Shown here one piece after another: positions 47,664 to 59,403 of a stretch of DNA of 64,000 nucleotides. A program made the translations under genes and the position numbers. Each line of letters opens with the position of its first letter. The first letter of the stretch is position 1. Below the pieces are notes generated by a model. It did no database searches and had not been told where the DNA came from. It was given only the letters and a program-made list of their open reading frames with translations. The stretch is from assembly GCA_030696155.1 (NCBI GenBank), contig JAUYSY010000088.1, forward strand, positions 7,014 through 71,013. Reading direction: 5' to 3'. Source of the DNA: Alphaproteobacteria bacterium. GTDB taxonomy: Bacteria; Pseudomonadota; Alphaproteobacteria; JAUXUR01.

Positions 47664-48062
47664 TCACATTTTGCGCATTACCTACATATGTATAACATGC
47701 GCAGTAAAAATTACAAATAATTATTGCTCAAATTAAACATATGTGCGTTATGCGCAAAAAAAATTTGTTTTCGTTATTTTATTTGGGTTTCCCAGCATAT
47801 CCAGCCCAAATTGGCAATTACATCAAAAGAATCACTATTCTCCAGCTTAAAAGCGGATTATAAACAAATGGAATTAATGATATACGGGTGCTAATCAACA
47901 AAAGGAGATAAAGTATCATAGAACACATAAGGATGACAAGCGAATAATCTTAGAAAATCGTTTTTTATCAATATGTTATTAGGTGTTTTTAATTCCCAAT
48001 GTCCTATTTTTACACGTTTAGGCCCAGTAGTAAGATCTGTGCTATTTAGTGCCACTTTCTAA

Positions 48063-48236
48063 AAATCATGTCTTTCTCAAGAAATCTCTCCACATAAACT
48101 AAGACATTTTTTATTCACGTGGCTCAAAAAACAAGGCATAGATGATGCTCTTATTCAGCCGTATTCTGGTCACAAAAGCAGGCAATCCCTAGAGATTTAC
48201 TCAAAACTCTCCATCACAGATGCTTAAACTGGATAT
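48063..48236 (+). pseudogene. C-terminal fragment of a tyrosine recombinase (integrase) gene, flanked by 37-40-bp perfect inverted repeats (48017..48056 / 48281..48320)
   Basis: Translation ...[38 protein letters not shown] matches the integrase C-terminal R...H...LGH...Y motif region. The flanking IRs were read directly. Confidence 0.45.
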
Positions 48237-48386
48237 GAGAGCGTTATCAAAAAATTACCGATTTAAGCTTACATTTTACCTAAGTGGCACTAAATAGCAC
48301 AGATCTTACTACTGGGCCAACACCACCCCTATTATGTTCAAAGTGGACATAAATTCCTTAAGTCGGTTCCTTGTTCCATTACTCCC

Positions 48387-48746
48387 CTAACGCCTAATTC
48401 CAAAAATTAGAAAAGCATACCTTTTAAGTGTAGACAAAAAAGAAGGAGGTTTCTTAGTCACAGAAATATACCGAGGTAAATTATCATCACAGGGGGCAAG
48501 GTTATTGCGCAAAATCCACCCTCCTGGACCATCAAGGGAGGACAACTCTTTTTGAAACGCCGGATTATAAAATTCTTGCCATTTTAAGGGAGCATCCCAC
48601 TCTTTAAGGTAGGCCTGACGTTCGATGTCATTTAAAGAAACCCAAAAAGGCAACCAGACCCCAAGAGCCCAAACTTCACCCTCTTGACGCCAAAATATAT
48701 CCGAAGGCAAAAAACCAGGATACTCAATCCAAGGGGGATTACACAT
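48387..48746 (-). CDS. Hypothetical protein (119 aa), GC-richer cargo gene
   Basis: Intact ORF with non-AT-biased, Trp/Pro-rich composition. No motif recognised. Confidence 0.4.
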   Translation of the reverse strand: MCNPPWIEYPGFLPSDIFWRQEGEVWALGVWLPFWVSLNDIERQAYLKEWDAPLKWQEFYNPAFQKELSSLDGPGGWILRNNLAPCDDNLPRYISVTKKPPSFLSTLKRYAFLIFGIRR

Positions 48747-48764
48747 CTTCTTCTTTTTGTTCCT

Positions 48765-49496
48765 TTATTTAGCTAACGGAAAAAAAAGGATTTGTGTAAA
48801 TTGCGTGGGAGGAGTCGTGTATCCTTGCAGAATTTTACCATCATAATAAATGATGCCTTGATCTTTATTGTCAGCTCTTTTTCCAATACAGAACTGAATA
48901 CTTTCTCCGACCATCGTCTTCTGATCAACCGTATTTTTTCCCCATTTGACTCCTTTCCATGGACCGGTAATGGCCTTTGGATCCTGATTATTAATATCTG
49001 AAACATCGATCAAATTACCAAATCTTGTCTCAACTTCTTTGGTAGAGATGATCAGATTGTTAAGGGCTGAATTTTCATTCGTTAGGATCTTAATCCTACC
49101 ATCTTTTAAGGGCTCAAAGGTGACATCAATCGTTCCGGACTTCTTTAAACTCAATGCCCCTTGATTCTGATTTAATTCCAGCATTTGTGCATGTTCTTGT
49201 TTTGTTAGACCCAAATTTTCGTGATAAGGGAGTGGCTGTCCTTTGGGGGTTGAACCTACAAATTCTAAAGCCCACTCAGGATTTTTCTTTAACCCCACTT
49301 GTAATTTTGCAGCTAATTTTTCAAATTCTTCAGAGGATTGTATTTCCATGATATCGGCTTGAATTGTTTGCCCTGTAATGGGGATGTATTGTTTCCAATC
49401 TTTTTCTGACACTTTTCCGGCGTACCCGACATTAGAAAAGCTTAACGCAAGAAAAATAAGGCTTAGTTTAGAGCACAACGCTCTGAATAATTTCAT
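48765..49496 (-). CDS. Hypothetical secreted protein or lipoprotein (243 aa)
   Basis: Signal-peptide-like N-terminus MKLFRALCSKLSLIFLALSFSNVGYA. Adjacent to the previous ORF on the same strand. Confidence 0.45.
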   Translation of the reverse strand: MKLFRALCSKLSLIFLALSFSNVGYAGKVSEKDWKQYIPITGQTIQADIMEIQSSEEFEKLAAKLQVGLKKNPEWALEFVGSTPKGQPLPYHENLGLTKQEHAQMLELNQNQGALSLKKSGTIDVTFEPLKDGRIKILTNENSALNNLIISTKEVETRFGNLIDVSDINNQDPKAITGPWKGVKWGKNTVDQKTMVGESIQFCIGKRADNKDQGIIYYDGKILQGYTTPPTQFTQILFFPLAK

Positions 49497-56197: not shown

Positions 56198-56970
56198 GTG
56201 TTATCTCCTAGGAATAAATATAGATAAGATTTTCTTGATTGAAGTAGATATCTAGTTTTTTCAAAATTTAGATAGACATGCTCTTTGCAGACTCTGGAAT
56301 TCTGATGCGAAAAAGAGTGACAGTTTCCAAATCACCATTCGAAGGCCCTTTTTCTGGTGATGCATTAGTAGGCGACTGTGCTAAAGCATCAATGAACCTT
56401 CCTAACCAATTTACATCATCGCGTACTGATGCTTTCGTGCTAGAAGGCATTAACACGGTACCTACCCAAGTCATACTATGTGGGGTGGTGTTAGGCAAGC
56501 TTCTGCCAAACCTCATCTTGTAACTTTTTTGTGTTTAAACTCTTTGTAAATAAAAGATTCTTATCTCTTATCGTTATATCAATTTTTGTTTTTAATTTTT
56601 CTTTAATTCAATATTAGTTTTTAGAATAAACAATATATTTACACACTCTTACTCGAAGCATTAGGGTCGTCAATATCTTAAAATCTATTCAAGGAGTTAG
56701 TTCAAGATTAATAGCAAGAATACAATATAAACATTGGGAATTTTTCTCTTTAAAACTTCAAGATGAGGTTTGGTGGAAGCTTGTCGAACACCACTCCAAT
56801 AAGAAAAGGAAGAATATCTATTTAGTGGTTCTATCGCATCTGTATGGCTTGAATGAAAAATTGATAAATAGTCTTCCGTAGATGCTGCAGATCCTGTGTA
56901 TAAGATCCTTCGGCTTGATGGTCAGAAAGGATCTTGTACTCTATTAATCTCAAAGTGTCTCCCTAATAAA

Positions 56971-57624
56971 TTAGGAGTTATTATCATTAAGATTTAATGA
57001 TCGTGCTGATTTTATTGATAAAAAGTTATTTTTGATTTTAAATGCATCAAGATCACTTTCATAATTTGCAATTAAGTTAATGTATTTTTTTTTATAAGTA
57101 TCCTTTGATATCTTACTGACAAAATACCTCATTTCAGCAATAATAACATTGAATTGATTAATTAAGTCCTGTTGAAATTCCTTATCATCCGAAATTTTAA
57201 AAGCGGCCTTATAGTACTCTAATGAAGCTTTTAAAATAACATTAATTGCAAAATTAATTTTTGTATCATACGAATGTAAGTAAGTACAAACTTTTGTAGA
57301 TTCAAAAGCTAAAGCTTTTTTTGCCTTTATTTTTGGAATTGATTTATATTTAAAATTAGCAGGATTAAAAAAATAATTTTGAGCATTTATTAATAAGGTA
57401 TCGCCAATTTGTGTTAATAAATTTACAGCATCATTGTCTGTGTTAAGATCAAGATCTTCCAATGCTTGAGGTAAAAAGCTGTAATCAGTCAAATGATATT
57501 CCTCATTGATATGAGATAAAGCAATAGGTAATTTTTCTGTAATTTTTGTAGAATGGATTTCTGTTGTATATAAAAAACCTAATAAAACTATTAGGGAGCA
57601 TTTTATATTTAAGTGTTTAATCAT
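56971..57624 (-). CDS. Hypothetical secreted protein (217 aa)
   Basis: Signal-peptide-like MIKHLNIKCSLIVLLGFLYTTEIHS. Confidence 0.45.
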   Translation of the reverse strand: MIKHLNIKCSLIVLLGFLYTTEIHSTKITEKLPIALSHINEEYHLTDYSFLPQALEDLDLNTDNDAVNLLTQIGDTLLINAQNYFFNPANFKYKSIPKIKAKKALAFESTKVCTYLHSYDTKINFAINVILKASLEYYKAAFKISDDKEFQQDLINQFNVIIAEMRYFVSKISKDTYKKKYINLIANYESDLDAFKIKNNFLSIKSARSLNLNDNNS

Positions 57625-57819
57625 AATTTTTACCTTTATTATAATAAGTTATAGTGATTTTTTAAAACGTTTGACATTTTCATAATACAAAACATAAATA
57701 TGTGGCTTTTACTGCGTATCTTCGCTTAATATATATATACATGTATATATATAGTCAATGTTTATTTTGGTTTTATTATTTTCATGTCTACTAGTTGATA
57801 ATTTGAATAAATTAGCTGA

Positions 57820-59280
57820 AGACAGAGCCCATTAAAGTTACTTGATCAGGAACTGGATGATCAATACAAAGAAACAAATAGCCGTTTTATATCTGGAGCT
57901 AACGAATTTCTGACATTTAGAAAAGATGGAACATTCCGTGTTTCCACGCCAAAACTAGATGAAACAGACAGCATGTCACTTGGAACTATATTTCCAGAGA
58001 AAAAATATATCCACTTAATTGAAGTTCTGGCTACGGTTGATCATTTTACTGAATTCCTTGAAGAATTTGAGCATTGGCAGCCCAAATACAGGAAAGAAAG
58101 ACCAGAAAAGAAGACATTTTTTGCTGGAATCATGGCTTATGGTTGTGATATTGGACACCGGAAGTTGGCTCAAACATCTAAGGAAATTAACGAAAATGAA
58201 CTGGACAATACCCTCAATTTGTATTTTTCTCTAGCCAATATTCAAAAGGCAAATGATCGCGTTTTGCAGTTTATGGATAAGATGAATTTACCTAACGTTT
58301 ACAGAAACAATGACGATATATTACACACATCCAGTGATGGCCAAAAATGTGAAGTAGTCGTTGATTCATTGAATGTCAATCATTCTTTCAAATACCTGAG
58401 AAAGAATAAAGGCGTTAGTGTTATGAGTTTCATCGATATGAGACATCTGATATGGTATTCAACGGTCATTAGTTCTTCTGAACGTGAAGCAGCTTACGTT
58501 ATCGACGGCCTGATGTACAATAATGTAATCAAGAGTGATATTCATTCAACAGACACCCATGGGTTTTCTGAAATGGTCTTTACTGTGACGCATTTGTTGG
58601 GGTTCACATTTGCTCCACGAATAAAGGGGATTGGTCGCCAACAGTTATATGCCTTCAGCAGTAGAAAAGAAACCAGCCAAAAATCACAAGGTTTTAAGCC
58701 AAATAAGTACATCAATGAGAAACTCATTATACCTCATGGGATGAGATCCTCCGATTTATTTCAACAATTAGCCTAAAGGTAGCAACAGCTTCTCAACTTT
58801 TTCGACGGCTGAACTCTTATTCCAAACAACATCCACTCTACAAGGCATTAAAAGAATTTGGCAAGATCCAAAAAACGAATTTTATTCTAAAATATGCAGA
58901 TGATTGAGAGTTTAGGCAATCAATCGAGAAACAGCTAAACAAAGTTGAAAACTCACATAAATTGGGAAAGGTGATTTCTGTTTGTAATGACCATTCATTT
59001 TTACACGGTGAGAAAGAGGATCAAGAGATTGCAGAAGGCTGCCGCCGATTAATCAAAAATTCTCTGGTGTGCTGAAATTATATTTATCTCTAAATGCAAA
59101 TTGATGAAGATGCAGATGAAGGTAGAAAACAAGAATTAATAGAGGGGGTCCGGAATGAATCAATAATGTGGTGGGGGCATTTTAATTTTAATGGAGAATT
59201 CGATTTCTCAGACGACAAAATGTTGGATTCCATTGGATTGAGAGTTTCCAAAAAAACATCCTTGAATGAAAGGTAATTTT
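57820..59280 (+). pseudogene. tnpA: Tn3-family transposase (tnpA) 3' fragment, N-terminally truncated and frameshifted after 58776
   Basis: HSTDTHGFSEMVFTVTHLLGFTFAPRIKGIG matches the Tn3 TnpA conserved region. The next frame continues with ...LKYADD.EFRQSIEKQLNKVENSHKLGKVISVCND...EDQEIAEGCRRLIKNSLVC. Ends adjacent to the terminal IR. Confidence 0.7.
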
Positions 59281-59403
59281 GGGAAGTCAAAATCTCTCCA
59301 ATGTCTTTCTGTATAAGGGGTTTTTGAAAATCCTATGATACTTTATCTCCTTTTGTTGATTAGCACCCTTCATAGGCTTTTTTTTAAAAACACCCCAATT
59401 CAT

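What the first reader, a model, noticed from the sequence alone, without database searches (positions are those of the whole stretch)
47886..59368. Tn3-family-derived composite with perfect 36-bp terminal IRs, nested internal IR copies and decayed tnpA/tnpR
GGGTGCTAATCAACAAAAGGAGATAAAGTATCATAG at 47886..47921 and its reverse complement at 59333..59368 match at 36 of 37 positions. A same-orientation, one-indel copy lies at 50086..50115, and a degenerate opposite-orientation copy at 53362..53399. The opposite-orientation copy shares ~90 bp of upstream sequence with the right end (53310..53399 versus 59288..59368), which corresponds to the tail of tnpA. Inside are a tnpR C-terminal fragment (52893..53201), a frameshifted 3' half of tnpA (57820..59280), an Rpn fragment and an integrase fragment. 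The cargo is a mixed set of non-transposition genes. The nested IRs 50086 and 53399 delimit a 3.3-kb sub-element carrying only the YoeB-fusion gene and the tnpR remnant.
Basis: seen in the sequence. Interest (0 to 1): 0.55.

Follow-up and report, generated by a model that had tools for sequence, protein, structure and literature searches.

The report
Dead Tn3-family transposon remnants cluster
This stretch holds the worn-out ends and gene fragments of at least two, probably three, separate Tn3-type jumping-gene insertions in a mobile-DNA-rich island of an endosymbiont-like bacterium, which is ordinary genome debris and not a working or new kind of transposon.

Summary
The sequence features are real. 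A perfect 36-bp inverted repeat lies at 47886-47921 and 59333-59368. A truncated same-orientation copy lies at 50086-50111, and a 75% copy at 53364-53399. There is a tnpA remnant (C-terminal 47%, one frameshift, three stops) and a serine-recombinase C-terminal fragment.

The tnpA remnant and the repeats belong to one Tn3-family clade. Intact members sit on Thiothrix plasmids (62% TnpA identity, homologous ends).

The "composite with a nested sub-element" reading is not supported:
- No pairing of the four ends has a 5-bp target duplication.
- The two inner ends are only about 52% alike. They abut different broken genes, an Rpn paralog and an ATPase_2/DUF234 paralog.
- The two tnpA-side ends match different sublineages of the clade.
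- The other half of the broken ATPase gene appears to lie 18.5 kb away, outside the proposed element.

The best reading is a relic cluster of at least two, probably three, dead Tn3-family insertions. These were later cut up by deletions and recombination, inside a 34-62 kb island of mobile and defence DNA in a Midichloriaceae-like MAG. It is a new but decayed member of a known kind, of low interest.

The most interesting by-product is the 747-aa "YoeB fusion". It belongs to a small family of long, apparently exported repeat proteins with a C-terminal YoeB RNase domain and no antitoxin.

The parts
47886..47921 (+). L1: complete 36-bp Tn3-family terminal repeat, outer end on the left, sublineage E1
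   Evidence: Perfect complement of 59333-59368 (I4). Homologous to the Thiothrix tnpR-side repeat.
47922..47981 (+). Subterminal sequence of the tnpR-proximal type, with no tnpR behind it
   Evidence: Shares GGATGAC...AGAAAA(T)CG with the Thiothrix fructosivorans tnpR-side subterminal region (alignment A2; my reading of the alignment).
47982..48020 (+). 39-bp block repeated in inverted orientation at 52844-52882, just 5' of the tnpR fragment. A likely rearrangement scar.
   Evidence: 85% complementary (I6).
48063..48227 (+). Tyrosine-recombinase (integrase) C-terminal fragment inside the hairpin 48016-48323
   Evidence: Phage_integrase positions 124-168 of 172, E 1.7e-9. The hairpin arms are 51 nt and 88% complementary (I2).
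49723..50061 (-). C-terminal fragment of an Rpn (PD-(D/E)XK_2) paralog, truncated 24 bp from L2
   Evidence: tblastn to the intact Rpn gene at 44574-45440, residues 179-278. BLASTP E 5e-6.
50086..50111 (+). L2: truncated E1-type terminal repeat (outer 26 bp only, altered tip)
   Evidence: 22 exact bases shared with L1 and R1 (I17 and D4). It diverges after position 26.
50389..52632 (+). 747-aa protein with a hydrophobic N-terminus and a C-terminal YoeB RNase domain. A host-lineage gene, not a transposition gene.
   Evidence: YoeB_toxin hit at residues 687-745. Family of 650-950-aa homologues. The homologue in a related MAG is chromosomal with no Tn3 nearby.
52893..53201 (+). Serine recombinase (tnpR-like) C-terminal half
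   Evidence: Resolvase positions 109-144 of 145. 43-47% identical to the TnpR of Thiothrix and Aureispira Tn3 elements. NCBIfam positions 103-197 of 203.
53306..53399 (+). R2: tnpA-proximal-type end of a second sublineage (E2). Spacer at 53306-53363 and repeat at 53364-53399, with tnpA entirely missing.
   Evidence: 82% identical to 59275-59368. The outer half is identical to the end in locus L049.
53400..53965 (-). Middle part (residues 236 to about 424) of an ATPase_2/DUF234 paralog, cut by R2 and carrying three stops
   Evidence: tblastn E 2.4e-40 to the intact gene at 46224-47663. The reading frame runs straight into R2.
34690..34865 (-). Probable other half (C-terminus with its natural stop) of the ATPase paralog cut by R2. 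It lies outside the finding, next to an intact resolvase gene.
   Evidence: Residues 443-477 align at 43% identity, E 8.7e-4. The frame and stop are shown. No repeat is present at its truncated edge.
54211..54852 (+). SOUL haem-binding family gene (interior gene)
   Evidence: Pfam SOUL, E 4e-48.
55482..56183 (-). Short-chain dehydrogenase gene that has lost its start (a stop lies 5 codons before the GxxxGIG motif)
   Evidence: adh_short positions 4-193 of 195 when read from the upstream stop. Frame shown.
57826..59279 (+). tnpA remnant: C-terminal 47% of a Tn3-family transposase, with one frameshift and three in-frame stops
   Evidence: 62% identical, without gaps, to residues 539-1015 of the Thiothrix unzii pTunz1 TnpA. 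DDE_Tnp_Tn3. NF033527 positions 498-953 of 954.
59280..59368 (+). R1: tnpA-proximal spacer (59280-59332) and complete 36-bp repeat (59333-59368), sublineage E1

Best explanation
The region is a relic cluster, not a transposon. At least two, and probably three or more, copies of Tn3-family elements from one clade inserted into this neighbourhood by ordinary replicative transposition. The intact form of this clade is a roughly 4-kb element laid out as repeat, tnpR (leftward), res, tnpA (rightward), repeat.

One copy (sublineage E2, end R2) landed in an ATPase_2/DUF234 gene. An E1-type copy (end L2) landed in or next to an Rpn gene. L1 and R1 are the tnpR-side and tnpA-side ends of the E1 type.

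Later deletions, recombination between copies and arrival of other mobile DNA removed every tnpR 5' half, every res site and all of tnpA except one C-terminal 47%. These events also separated the ends from their original partners, so no target duplication survives.

Nothing here can transpose on its own. L1 and R1 are still intact binding sites. They could in principle be moved by a cognate transposase supplied from elsewhere, but there is no sign that this has happened.

Shown: identity of the parts, clade membership, absence of duplications, and gene truncations at R2 and L2. Inferred: the number and order of events, and that L1 and R1 come from different copies or from a copy whose flanks were exchanged.
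For: 1. tnpA and the repeats belong to one Tn3-family clade. TnpA is 62% identical to the intact 1021-aa protein of Thiothrix pTunz1. The terminal repeat and the spacer on the tnpA side are conserved in Thiothrix and in loci L002, L004, L047 and L049.

2. The four ends have four different 5-bp flanks.

3. R2 interrupts an ATPase paralog in frame, and L2 lies 24 bp from a truncated Rpn paralog. These are two different target genes.

4. R2's outer half equals the L049-type end, while R1 resembles the L047 type. That makes two sublineages.

5. The likely C-terminal half of the ATPase gene cut by R2 is at 34690-34865. The two halves meet within about 5 codons. If so, L1 and L2 lie in DNA inserted into that gene, while R1 lies beyond it.

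6. No N-terminal tnpA pieces exist anywhere in the window.

7. Extra and nested end copies are also seen around intact relatives, in pTunz1 and in Aureispira pAUEb.

8. The surroundings from 34 to 62 kb are an island of mobile and defence genes.
Against: - L1 and R1 are 36/36 identical although the adjacent tnpA carries four disabling lesions. By my rough estimate, with neutral decay of about 3%, two or so changes in 72 bp would be expected. That estimate is an inference, not a computation.
- Such a perfect pair fits a single element, or recent mobilisation in trans, a little better than two unrelated copies.
- A single element can lose its duplication through an adjacent deletion made by its own transposase (established behaviour of replicative transposons), so a missing duplication is not proof.
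- The link between the two ATPase pieces rests on a 35-residue alignment (E 8.7e-4) and on a coincidence of positions.
- The contig is a metagenome assembly. Independent Logan contigs break at the repeats (49671-49703, 52844-52882 and the 36-bp repeat), so the junctions are not independently confirmed.
Confidence: 0.72

Rival explanations
1. Coordinates 47886-59368 are one large, now non-autonomous Tn3-derived transposon. It captured cargo and can move, or did move, as a unit using a transposase supplied in trans, in the manner of TIME-COMP-type elements.
For: The pair of ends is perfect at 36 bp, of the correct two types (tnpR-side subterminal sequence at L1, tnpA-side at R1) and in the correct relative orientation. 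Non-autonomous Tn3 derivatives that keep only repeats are known to transpose and to carry foreign DNA (PMC4133298).
Against: There is no 5-bp duplication. No other copy of the repeat was found in 185,579 species genomes or in the JGI metagenomes. No TnpA above 77% identity other than the remnant itself was found among 5.8 billion clustered proteins. The interior contains junction fragments of other insertions, R2 with its ATPase target and L2 with its Rpn target, and the other half of that ATPase target seems to lie outside the unit.
Confidence: 0.17
2. The inner pair 50086-53399 is a discrete small Tn3-derived element that inserted into the larger one, carrying the YoeB-domain gene as a toxin passenger next to tnpR.
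For: The geometry fits: left-type end, gene, tnpR fragment, right-type end. RelE/ParE-superfamily toxin genes are known next to res and tnpR in Tn3-family elements (PMC7157771).
Against: The ends are about 52% alike and come from different sublineages. The left one lacks its inner 10 bp. The flanks ATTTA and AATTC differ. The flanking gene fragments are unrelated, Rpn against ATPase. The YoeB-domain protein is 747 aa, has no antitoxin, and its homologue in a related MAG is chromosomal without Tn3. The tnpR 5' half is missing, so the gene and tnpR are not in their original juxtaposition.
Confidence: 0.04
3. The arrangement is partly an assembly artefact. Short exact repeats (33, 36 and 39 bp) caused wrong joins in the metagenome-assembled contig.
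For: Independent Logan assemblies of run SRR13727522 end at the exact repeat 49671-49703, inside the 39-bp block 52844-52882, and inside the 36-bp terminal repeat at 59333-59368. The order of the segments is therefore supported by only one assembly.
Against: The Logan contigs are 100% identical to the window over 3.2 kb. Repeats of 33-39 bp are shorter than the largest k-mers of usual metagenome assemblers (general knowledge, not tested). The gene truncations at R2 and L2 lie inside single segments and do not depend on the joins.
Confidence: 0.07

Closest known systems
Unnamed Tn3-family transposons on Thiothrix unzii pTunz1 (NZ_CP072796.1) and T. fructosivorans pTfr153 (NZ_CP072750.1)
   Same: TnpA is 62% identical over the retained half. 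The terminal repeat follows the same pattern (GGGTG...AAAGTnnCATAGGATTT). The spacer between the tnpA stop and the repeat is homologous, and the tnpR-side subterminal motif is shared.
   Different: Those elements are intact 4-kb units with a 1021-aa TnpA and a divergent full-length tnpR. Here only 47% of tnpA (disabled) and half a recombinase remain, in the same orientation and 4.6 kb apart.
TIME, TIME-RES and TIME-COMP non-autonomous Tn3 derivatives (Szuplewska et al. 2014, PMC4133298)
   Same: Tn3-type repeats bracket DNA that encodes no working transposase.
   Different: TIME-COMPs are bounded by two complete miniature elements, were caught transposing, and make 5-bp duplications. Here there are single ends, no duplication and no second copy.
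Tn3-family transposons carrying toxin-antitoxin pairs next to res and tnpR (Lima-Mendez et al. 2020, PMC7157771)
   Same: A RelE/ParE-superfamily (YoeB) toxin domain is encoded directly upstream of a tnpR remnant.
   Different: Known cases are small two-gene toxin-antitoxin modules. Here the YoeB domain is the C-terminus of a 747-aa protein with no antitoxin gene. The family occurs without Tn3 elsewhere.
Nested or truncated Tn3 remnants on Aureispira anguillae pAUEb (NZ_AP026869.1)
   Same: A 5'-truncated tnpA lies directly beside another Tn3 element's tnpR. This shows that such pile-ups are common for the family.
   Different: In pAUEb one complete element is still present.

Membership tests
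Tn3-family transposon | Large DDE transposase with the DDE_Tnp_Tn3 domain (about 1000 aa) | tested here: met
   A remnant only. DDE_Tnp_Tn3 E 6.9e-61. NF033527 positions 498-953 of 954. Residues 539-1015 of a 1021-aa relative. Disabled by one frameshift and three stops.
Tn3-family transposon | Terminal inverted repeats of about 38 bp that start with GGG and are homologous to those of related elements | tested here: met
   36-bp perfect pair. Aligned with the ends of Thiothrix and four metagenomic relatives.
Tn3-family transposon | 5-bp direct duplication of the target at the two ends | tested here: not met
   Flanks are TATAC (L1), ATTTA (L2), AATTC (R2) and TTCAT (R1). No pairing matches, either direct or reverse-complemented.
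Tn3-family transposon | Cointegrate-resolution module (res site plus resolvase) | tested here: inconclusive
   Only the C-terminal half of a serine recombinase is present. No res site could be recognised. The Thiothrix tnpR-tnpA intergenic regions gave no usable motif.
Composite transposon or TIME-COMP | Two complete copies of the flanking element, each with both of its own repeats | tested here: not met
   Self-comparison finds only single ends and no duplicated element bodies.
Composite transposon or TIME-COMP | Evidence of movement as a unit (second copy, duplication or empty site) | tested here: not met
   The repeat core is absent from genome contigs and metagenome contigs. Relatives share only the TerC and ion-channel genes, so no empty site is available.
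Nested sub-element 50086-53399 | A matched pair of ends around one insertion site | tested here: not met
   The ends are about 52% alike, the left one is truncated, and they abut different genes.
Type II YefM-YoeB toxin-antitoxin module | Small (about 85 aa) toxin with an adjacent antitoxin gene | tested here: not met
   The YoeB domain is present with its catalytic-type motifs. However, it is the end of a 747-aa protein, and no antitoxin ORF or Pfam hit lies beside it.

The most novel reading that the evidence does not exclude
The intact L1/R1 pair still works as a substrate for a cognate transposase elsewhere in the cell. On this reading the 11.5-kb block is a trans-mobilisable vehicle that spreads host-interaction genes among Rickettsiales-type endosymbionts. 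Chief among those genes is the exported repeat protein with a C-terminal YoeB RNase domain, which would be a candidate secreted toxin or effector of a so far undescribed family.
Probability: 0.06. Interest if true: 0.5.

Novelty: new member of a known kind. Interest (0 to 1): 0.2.

Why it matters
The main value is as annotation. The region should be labelled as Tn3-family remnants, with two sublineages related to the Thiothrix plasmid elements, inside a mobile and defence island. It should not be labelled a composite transposon.

It documents Tn3-family activity in a Midichloriaceae-like endosymbiont lineage. No paper in the held library combines "Tn3 family" and "Rickettsiales".

It also shows how repeated insertion and deletion build such islands. 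The long YoeB-domain protein family, a by-product of the check, deserves a separate look.

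Tried and rejected
1. A "short TnpA" family. The top 120 database hits to the tnpA remnant were all 467 aa or shorter, which suggested a natural half-size transposase. I rejected this. Contexts show broken or IS-truncated full-length genes, and intact 1021-aa relatives exist. The word-based search with a half-length query probably favours fragments of similar extent; that last point is my inference.

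2. Target duplications. I tried every pairing of the four ends, both direct and reverse-complemented. None matched.

3. Empty-site comparison. Relatives found through TerC (Ca. Jidaibacter and Midichloriaceae MAGs, 87-89%) share only the TerC and ion-channel gene pair with the window.

4. Other copies of the repeat. None were found in the genome or metagenome collections.

5. tnpA tail upstream of R2. It was not significant.

6. A lost left repeat at the edge of the distal ATPase piece (34780-35000). No similarity above shuffles.

7. res site recognition by comparison with the Thiothrix intergenic regions. Nothing usable.

8. RNA genes or tRNA-like attachment sites, as an explanation for the 64-bp repeat. 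None found.

9. An inversion model based on the 39-bp inverted block (47982-48020 and 52844-52882). It does not restore a canonical element, and I left it unresolved.

I replaced them with hand translation.

Full report
**Observation**

The four repeat copies exist where stated. The outer pair at 47886-47921 and 59333-59368 is 36/36 complementary (I4). A 31-nt core occurs twice in the window against zero in 100 shuffles.

The copy at 50086 shares 22 exact bases with the outer pair. Its tip is altered (GGGA where the full repeat reads GGGTG), and it stops after 26 bp, so the inner 10 bp are missing. The copy at 53364-53399 is 27/36. Together with 58 bp inside it, it aligns to 59275-59368 at 82%.

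One descriptive point needs correcting. The tnpA stop codon is at 59277-59279. The shared roughly 94 bp are therefore the non-coding spacer plus the repeat, not the tail of tnpA. Nothing upstream of 53306 is significantly similar.

**Identity of the transposition genes**

The ORF at 57973-58776 hits DDE_Tnp_Tn3 (E 6.9e-61). Joined across one frameshift, the remnant at 57826-59279 aligns without gaps to residues 539-1015 of the 1021-aa TnpA of Thiothrix unzii plasmid pTunz1. Identity is 62%, with three in-frame stops. It covers positions 498-953 of the 954-position NCBIfam Tn3 model. It is thus truly the 3' 47% of a normal-size gene. No N-terminal pieces occur anywhere in the window.

The ORF at 52893-53201 is the C-terminal half of a serine recombinase. 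It is 43-47% identical to the resolvases of the Thiothrix and Aureispira elements.

**Identity of the repeats**

In pTunz1 and pTfr153 the element is laid out as repeat, tnpR (leftward), res, tnpA (rightward), repeat, about 4 kb in all. Their ends, GGGTGAACTT...AAAGTCCCATAGGATTT, align with the window's repeats. The spacer between the tnpA stop and the repeat is also conserved in Thiothrix and in metagenomic relatives L002, L047 and L049, as are their repeats and that of L004.

R1 and R2 are therefore both tnpA-side ends. The 60 bp inside L1 resemble the Thiothrix tnpR-side subterminal sequence.

R2's outer half (CGTTTGTACGTTAGCACCC) is identical to the end in L049. R1's (TTTTGTTGATTAGCACCC) resembles L047. 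This gives two sublineages: E1 (L1, L2, R1) and E2 (R2).

**Tests of the composite and nested reading**

The 5-bp flanks are TATAC (L1), ATTTA (L2), AATTC (R2) and TTCAT (R1). No pairing matches, whether direct or reverse-complemented.

R2 interrupts, in frame, a paralog of the ATPase_2/DUF234 gene at 46224-47663. Residues 236 to about 424 lie at 53965-53400, at 41% identity with three stops. L2 lies 24 bp from the truncated end of an Rpn paralog, residues 179-278 at 50061-49723. The inner pair thus has unlike ends, about 52% alike by my count, with no duplication and two different target genes. It is not one insertion.

A C-terminal piece of an ATPase paralog with its natural stop lies at 34690-34865, beside an intact resolvase gene at 34108-34677. 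It begins within about 5 codons of where the R2-adjacent piece ends. If these are halves of one gene, then all DNA from 34866 to 53399, including L1 and L2 but not R1, is insertion relative to that gene. That is hard to reconcile with L1-R1 having arrived as a unit. No repeat survives at 34866.

The repeat core is absent from one genome for each of 185,579 species and from the JGI metagenomes. Apart from the remnant itself, the best TnpA match in 5.8 billion clustered proteins is 77%.

**Context**

TerC is 87-89% identical to Ca. Jidaibacter and Midichloriaceae MAGs, and the source record is an alphaproteobacterial MAG. Relatives share only the TerC and ion-channel pair with the window, so no empty site can be shown.

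The window from 34 to 62 kb carries the following:
- a resolvase
- a metallophosphatase
- an AbiEii/AbiEi pair
- a haemagglutinin-repeat protein with an Imm11 partner
- an intact Rpn gene
- a STAND-type ATPase
- integrase and transposase fragments
- the Tn3 debris

Extra or nested Tn3 ends also surround intact relatives.

**Mechanism**

The most likely history is repeated replicative transposition of related Tn3-family elements into this island. Deletions and recombination between copies followed. These removed tnpR, res and the tnpA 5' halves, and they exchanged flanks.

The block cannot move by itself. Only L1/R1 remain formally competent ends. Non-autonomous Tn3 derivatives can be moved in trans (PMC4133298), but nothing here shows that this one has been.

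The perfection of L1/R1 beside a tnpA carrying four lesions is the one feature that mildly favours the single-element rival. I give that rival 0.17.

**Caveat**

Independent Logan contigs from the same run match the window perfectly, but they end at the short repeats. The order of the segments therefore rests on one assembly.

**By-product**

The 747-aa "YoeB fusion" is not an accidental fusion. An exhaustive search found 34 proteins at E up to 0.001. These include ten or so proteins of 650-950 aa with the same layout, two of which carry source names and are from alphaproteobacterial MAGs:
- a hydrophobic N-terminus (my reading as a signal peptide, not tested)
- a conserved N-domain
- Sel1-like repeats
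- an acidic linker
- a C-terminal YoeB domain

The C-terminal domain aligns to solved YoeB toxins and keeps the G-P-E, R-L-V-Y and terminal H-Y motifs. No antitoxin gene is adjacent. In the related MAG GCA_030680745.1 the homologue sits among chromosomal genes without Tn3. No paper in the held library links YoeB, Sel1 and effectors.

**Verdict**

The Tn3 origin is confirmed. The composite and nested-element interpretation is not supported. This is a decayed new member of a known family, and the interest is low (0.2).

Noticed in passing
window 50389-52632; L044 2308-5148: The 747-aa protein belongs to a small family of 650-950-aa proteins, the named members being from alphaproteobacterial MAGs. 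The layout is a hydrophobic N-terminus, a conserved N-domain, Sel1-like RYE(I/V)AA-L-RKS repeats, an acidic Ser-rich linker and a full C-terminal YoeB RNase domain with catalytic-type motifs kept. No antitoxin gene lies beside it. It may be an exported toxin or effector.
   Followed up: partly
window 59369-59430 and 61276-61339: A 62-bp inverted repeat (about 90%) brackets the ion-channel and TerC genes. One arm starts exactly at the outer edge of terminal repeat R1 and includes the last 9 codons of the ion-channel gene. Relatives carrying the same gene pair lack this repeat. Unexplained.
   Followed up: partly
window 59432-61213: The TerC plus voltage-gated-type ion-channel gene pair is about 69-88% identical at the DNA level in MAGs labelled Midichloriaceae, Coxiellaceae and other Gammaproteobacteria. 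TerC alone is conserved at 72-83% in MAGs labelled Rickettsiaceae, Coxiella and Francisellaceae. Flanks are unrelated, which suggests horizontal spread among intracellular bacteria.
   Followed up: partly
window 34108-34677: An intact serine recombinase gene, 53% identical to the Thiothrix fructosivorans Tn3 resolvase. Repeated TATCATAAA motifs lie upstream, and a 44-bp palindrome sits at 33931-33974. It lies at the left edge of a higher-GC island.
   Followed up: partly
window 34984-44025: Defence and competition genes lie next to the Tn3 debris. They are a metallophosphatase, AbiEii/AbiEi, and a 1408-aa haemagglutinin-repeat protein followed by an Imm11 immunity-family protein.
   Followed up: no
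window 48334-48396, 53951-53994, 61649-61712 (weak copy 49621-49661): A repeat of about 64 bp, all copies in the same orientation, sits at the broken edges of other features. These are the ATPase fragment, a spot beside the integrase hairpin, and a spot after a transposase N-terminal fragment at 61418-61585. It is not a tRNA or an Rfam family.
   Followed up: partly
window 48016-48323 and 56481-56798: Two roughly 310-bp hairpin elements with arms of about 50 nt. The first encloses the integrase C-terminal fragment. Their origin is unknown.
   Followed up: no
window 55291-55439; L044 1592-1738: A 149-bp segment with its own inverted arms (55280-55311 and 55419-55450) is 82.5% identical to a segment in a related MAG. 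It may be a miniature mobile element.
   Followed up: no
window 44314-44433 and 45474-45592: The intact Rpn (PD-(D/E)XK_2) gene at 44574-45440 is flanked by 120-bp direct repeats that are 90% identical.
   Followed up: no
window 49671-49703 and 54907-54939: A 33-bp exact direct repeat. The first copy covers the 3' end of the Rpn fragment and the second follows the SOUL gene. The Logan contigs break here.
   Followed up: no
window 124-1531, 9832-11259, 32486-33896; 7360-9175 and 20778-22596: Three copies of a 1.4-kb paralogous gene (72-75% identical; the one copy scanned, 32392-33915, has no Pfam hit) and a pair of 1.8-kb paralogs (68%) lie in the low-GC part of the window.
   Followed up: no
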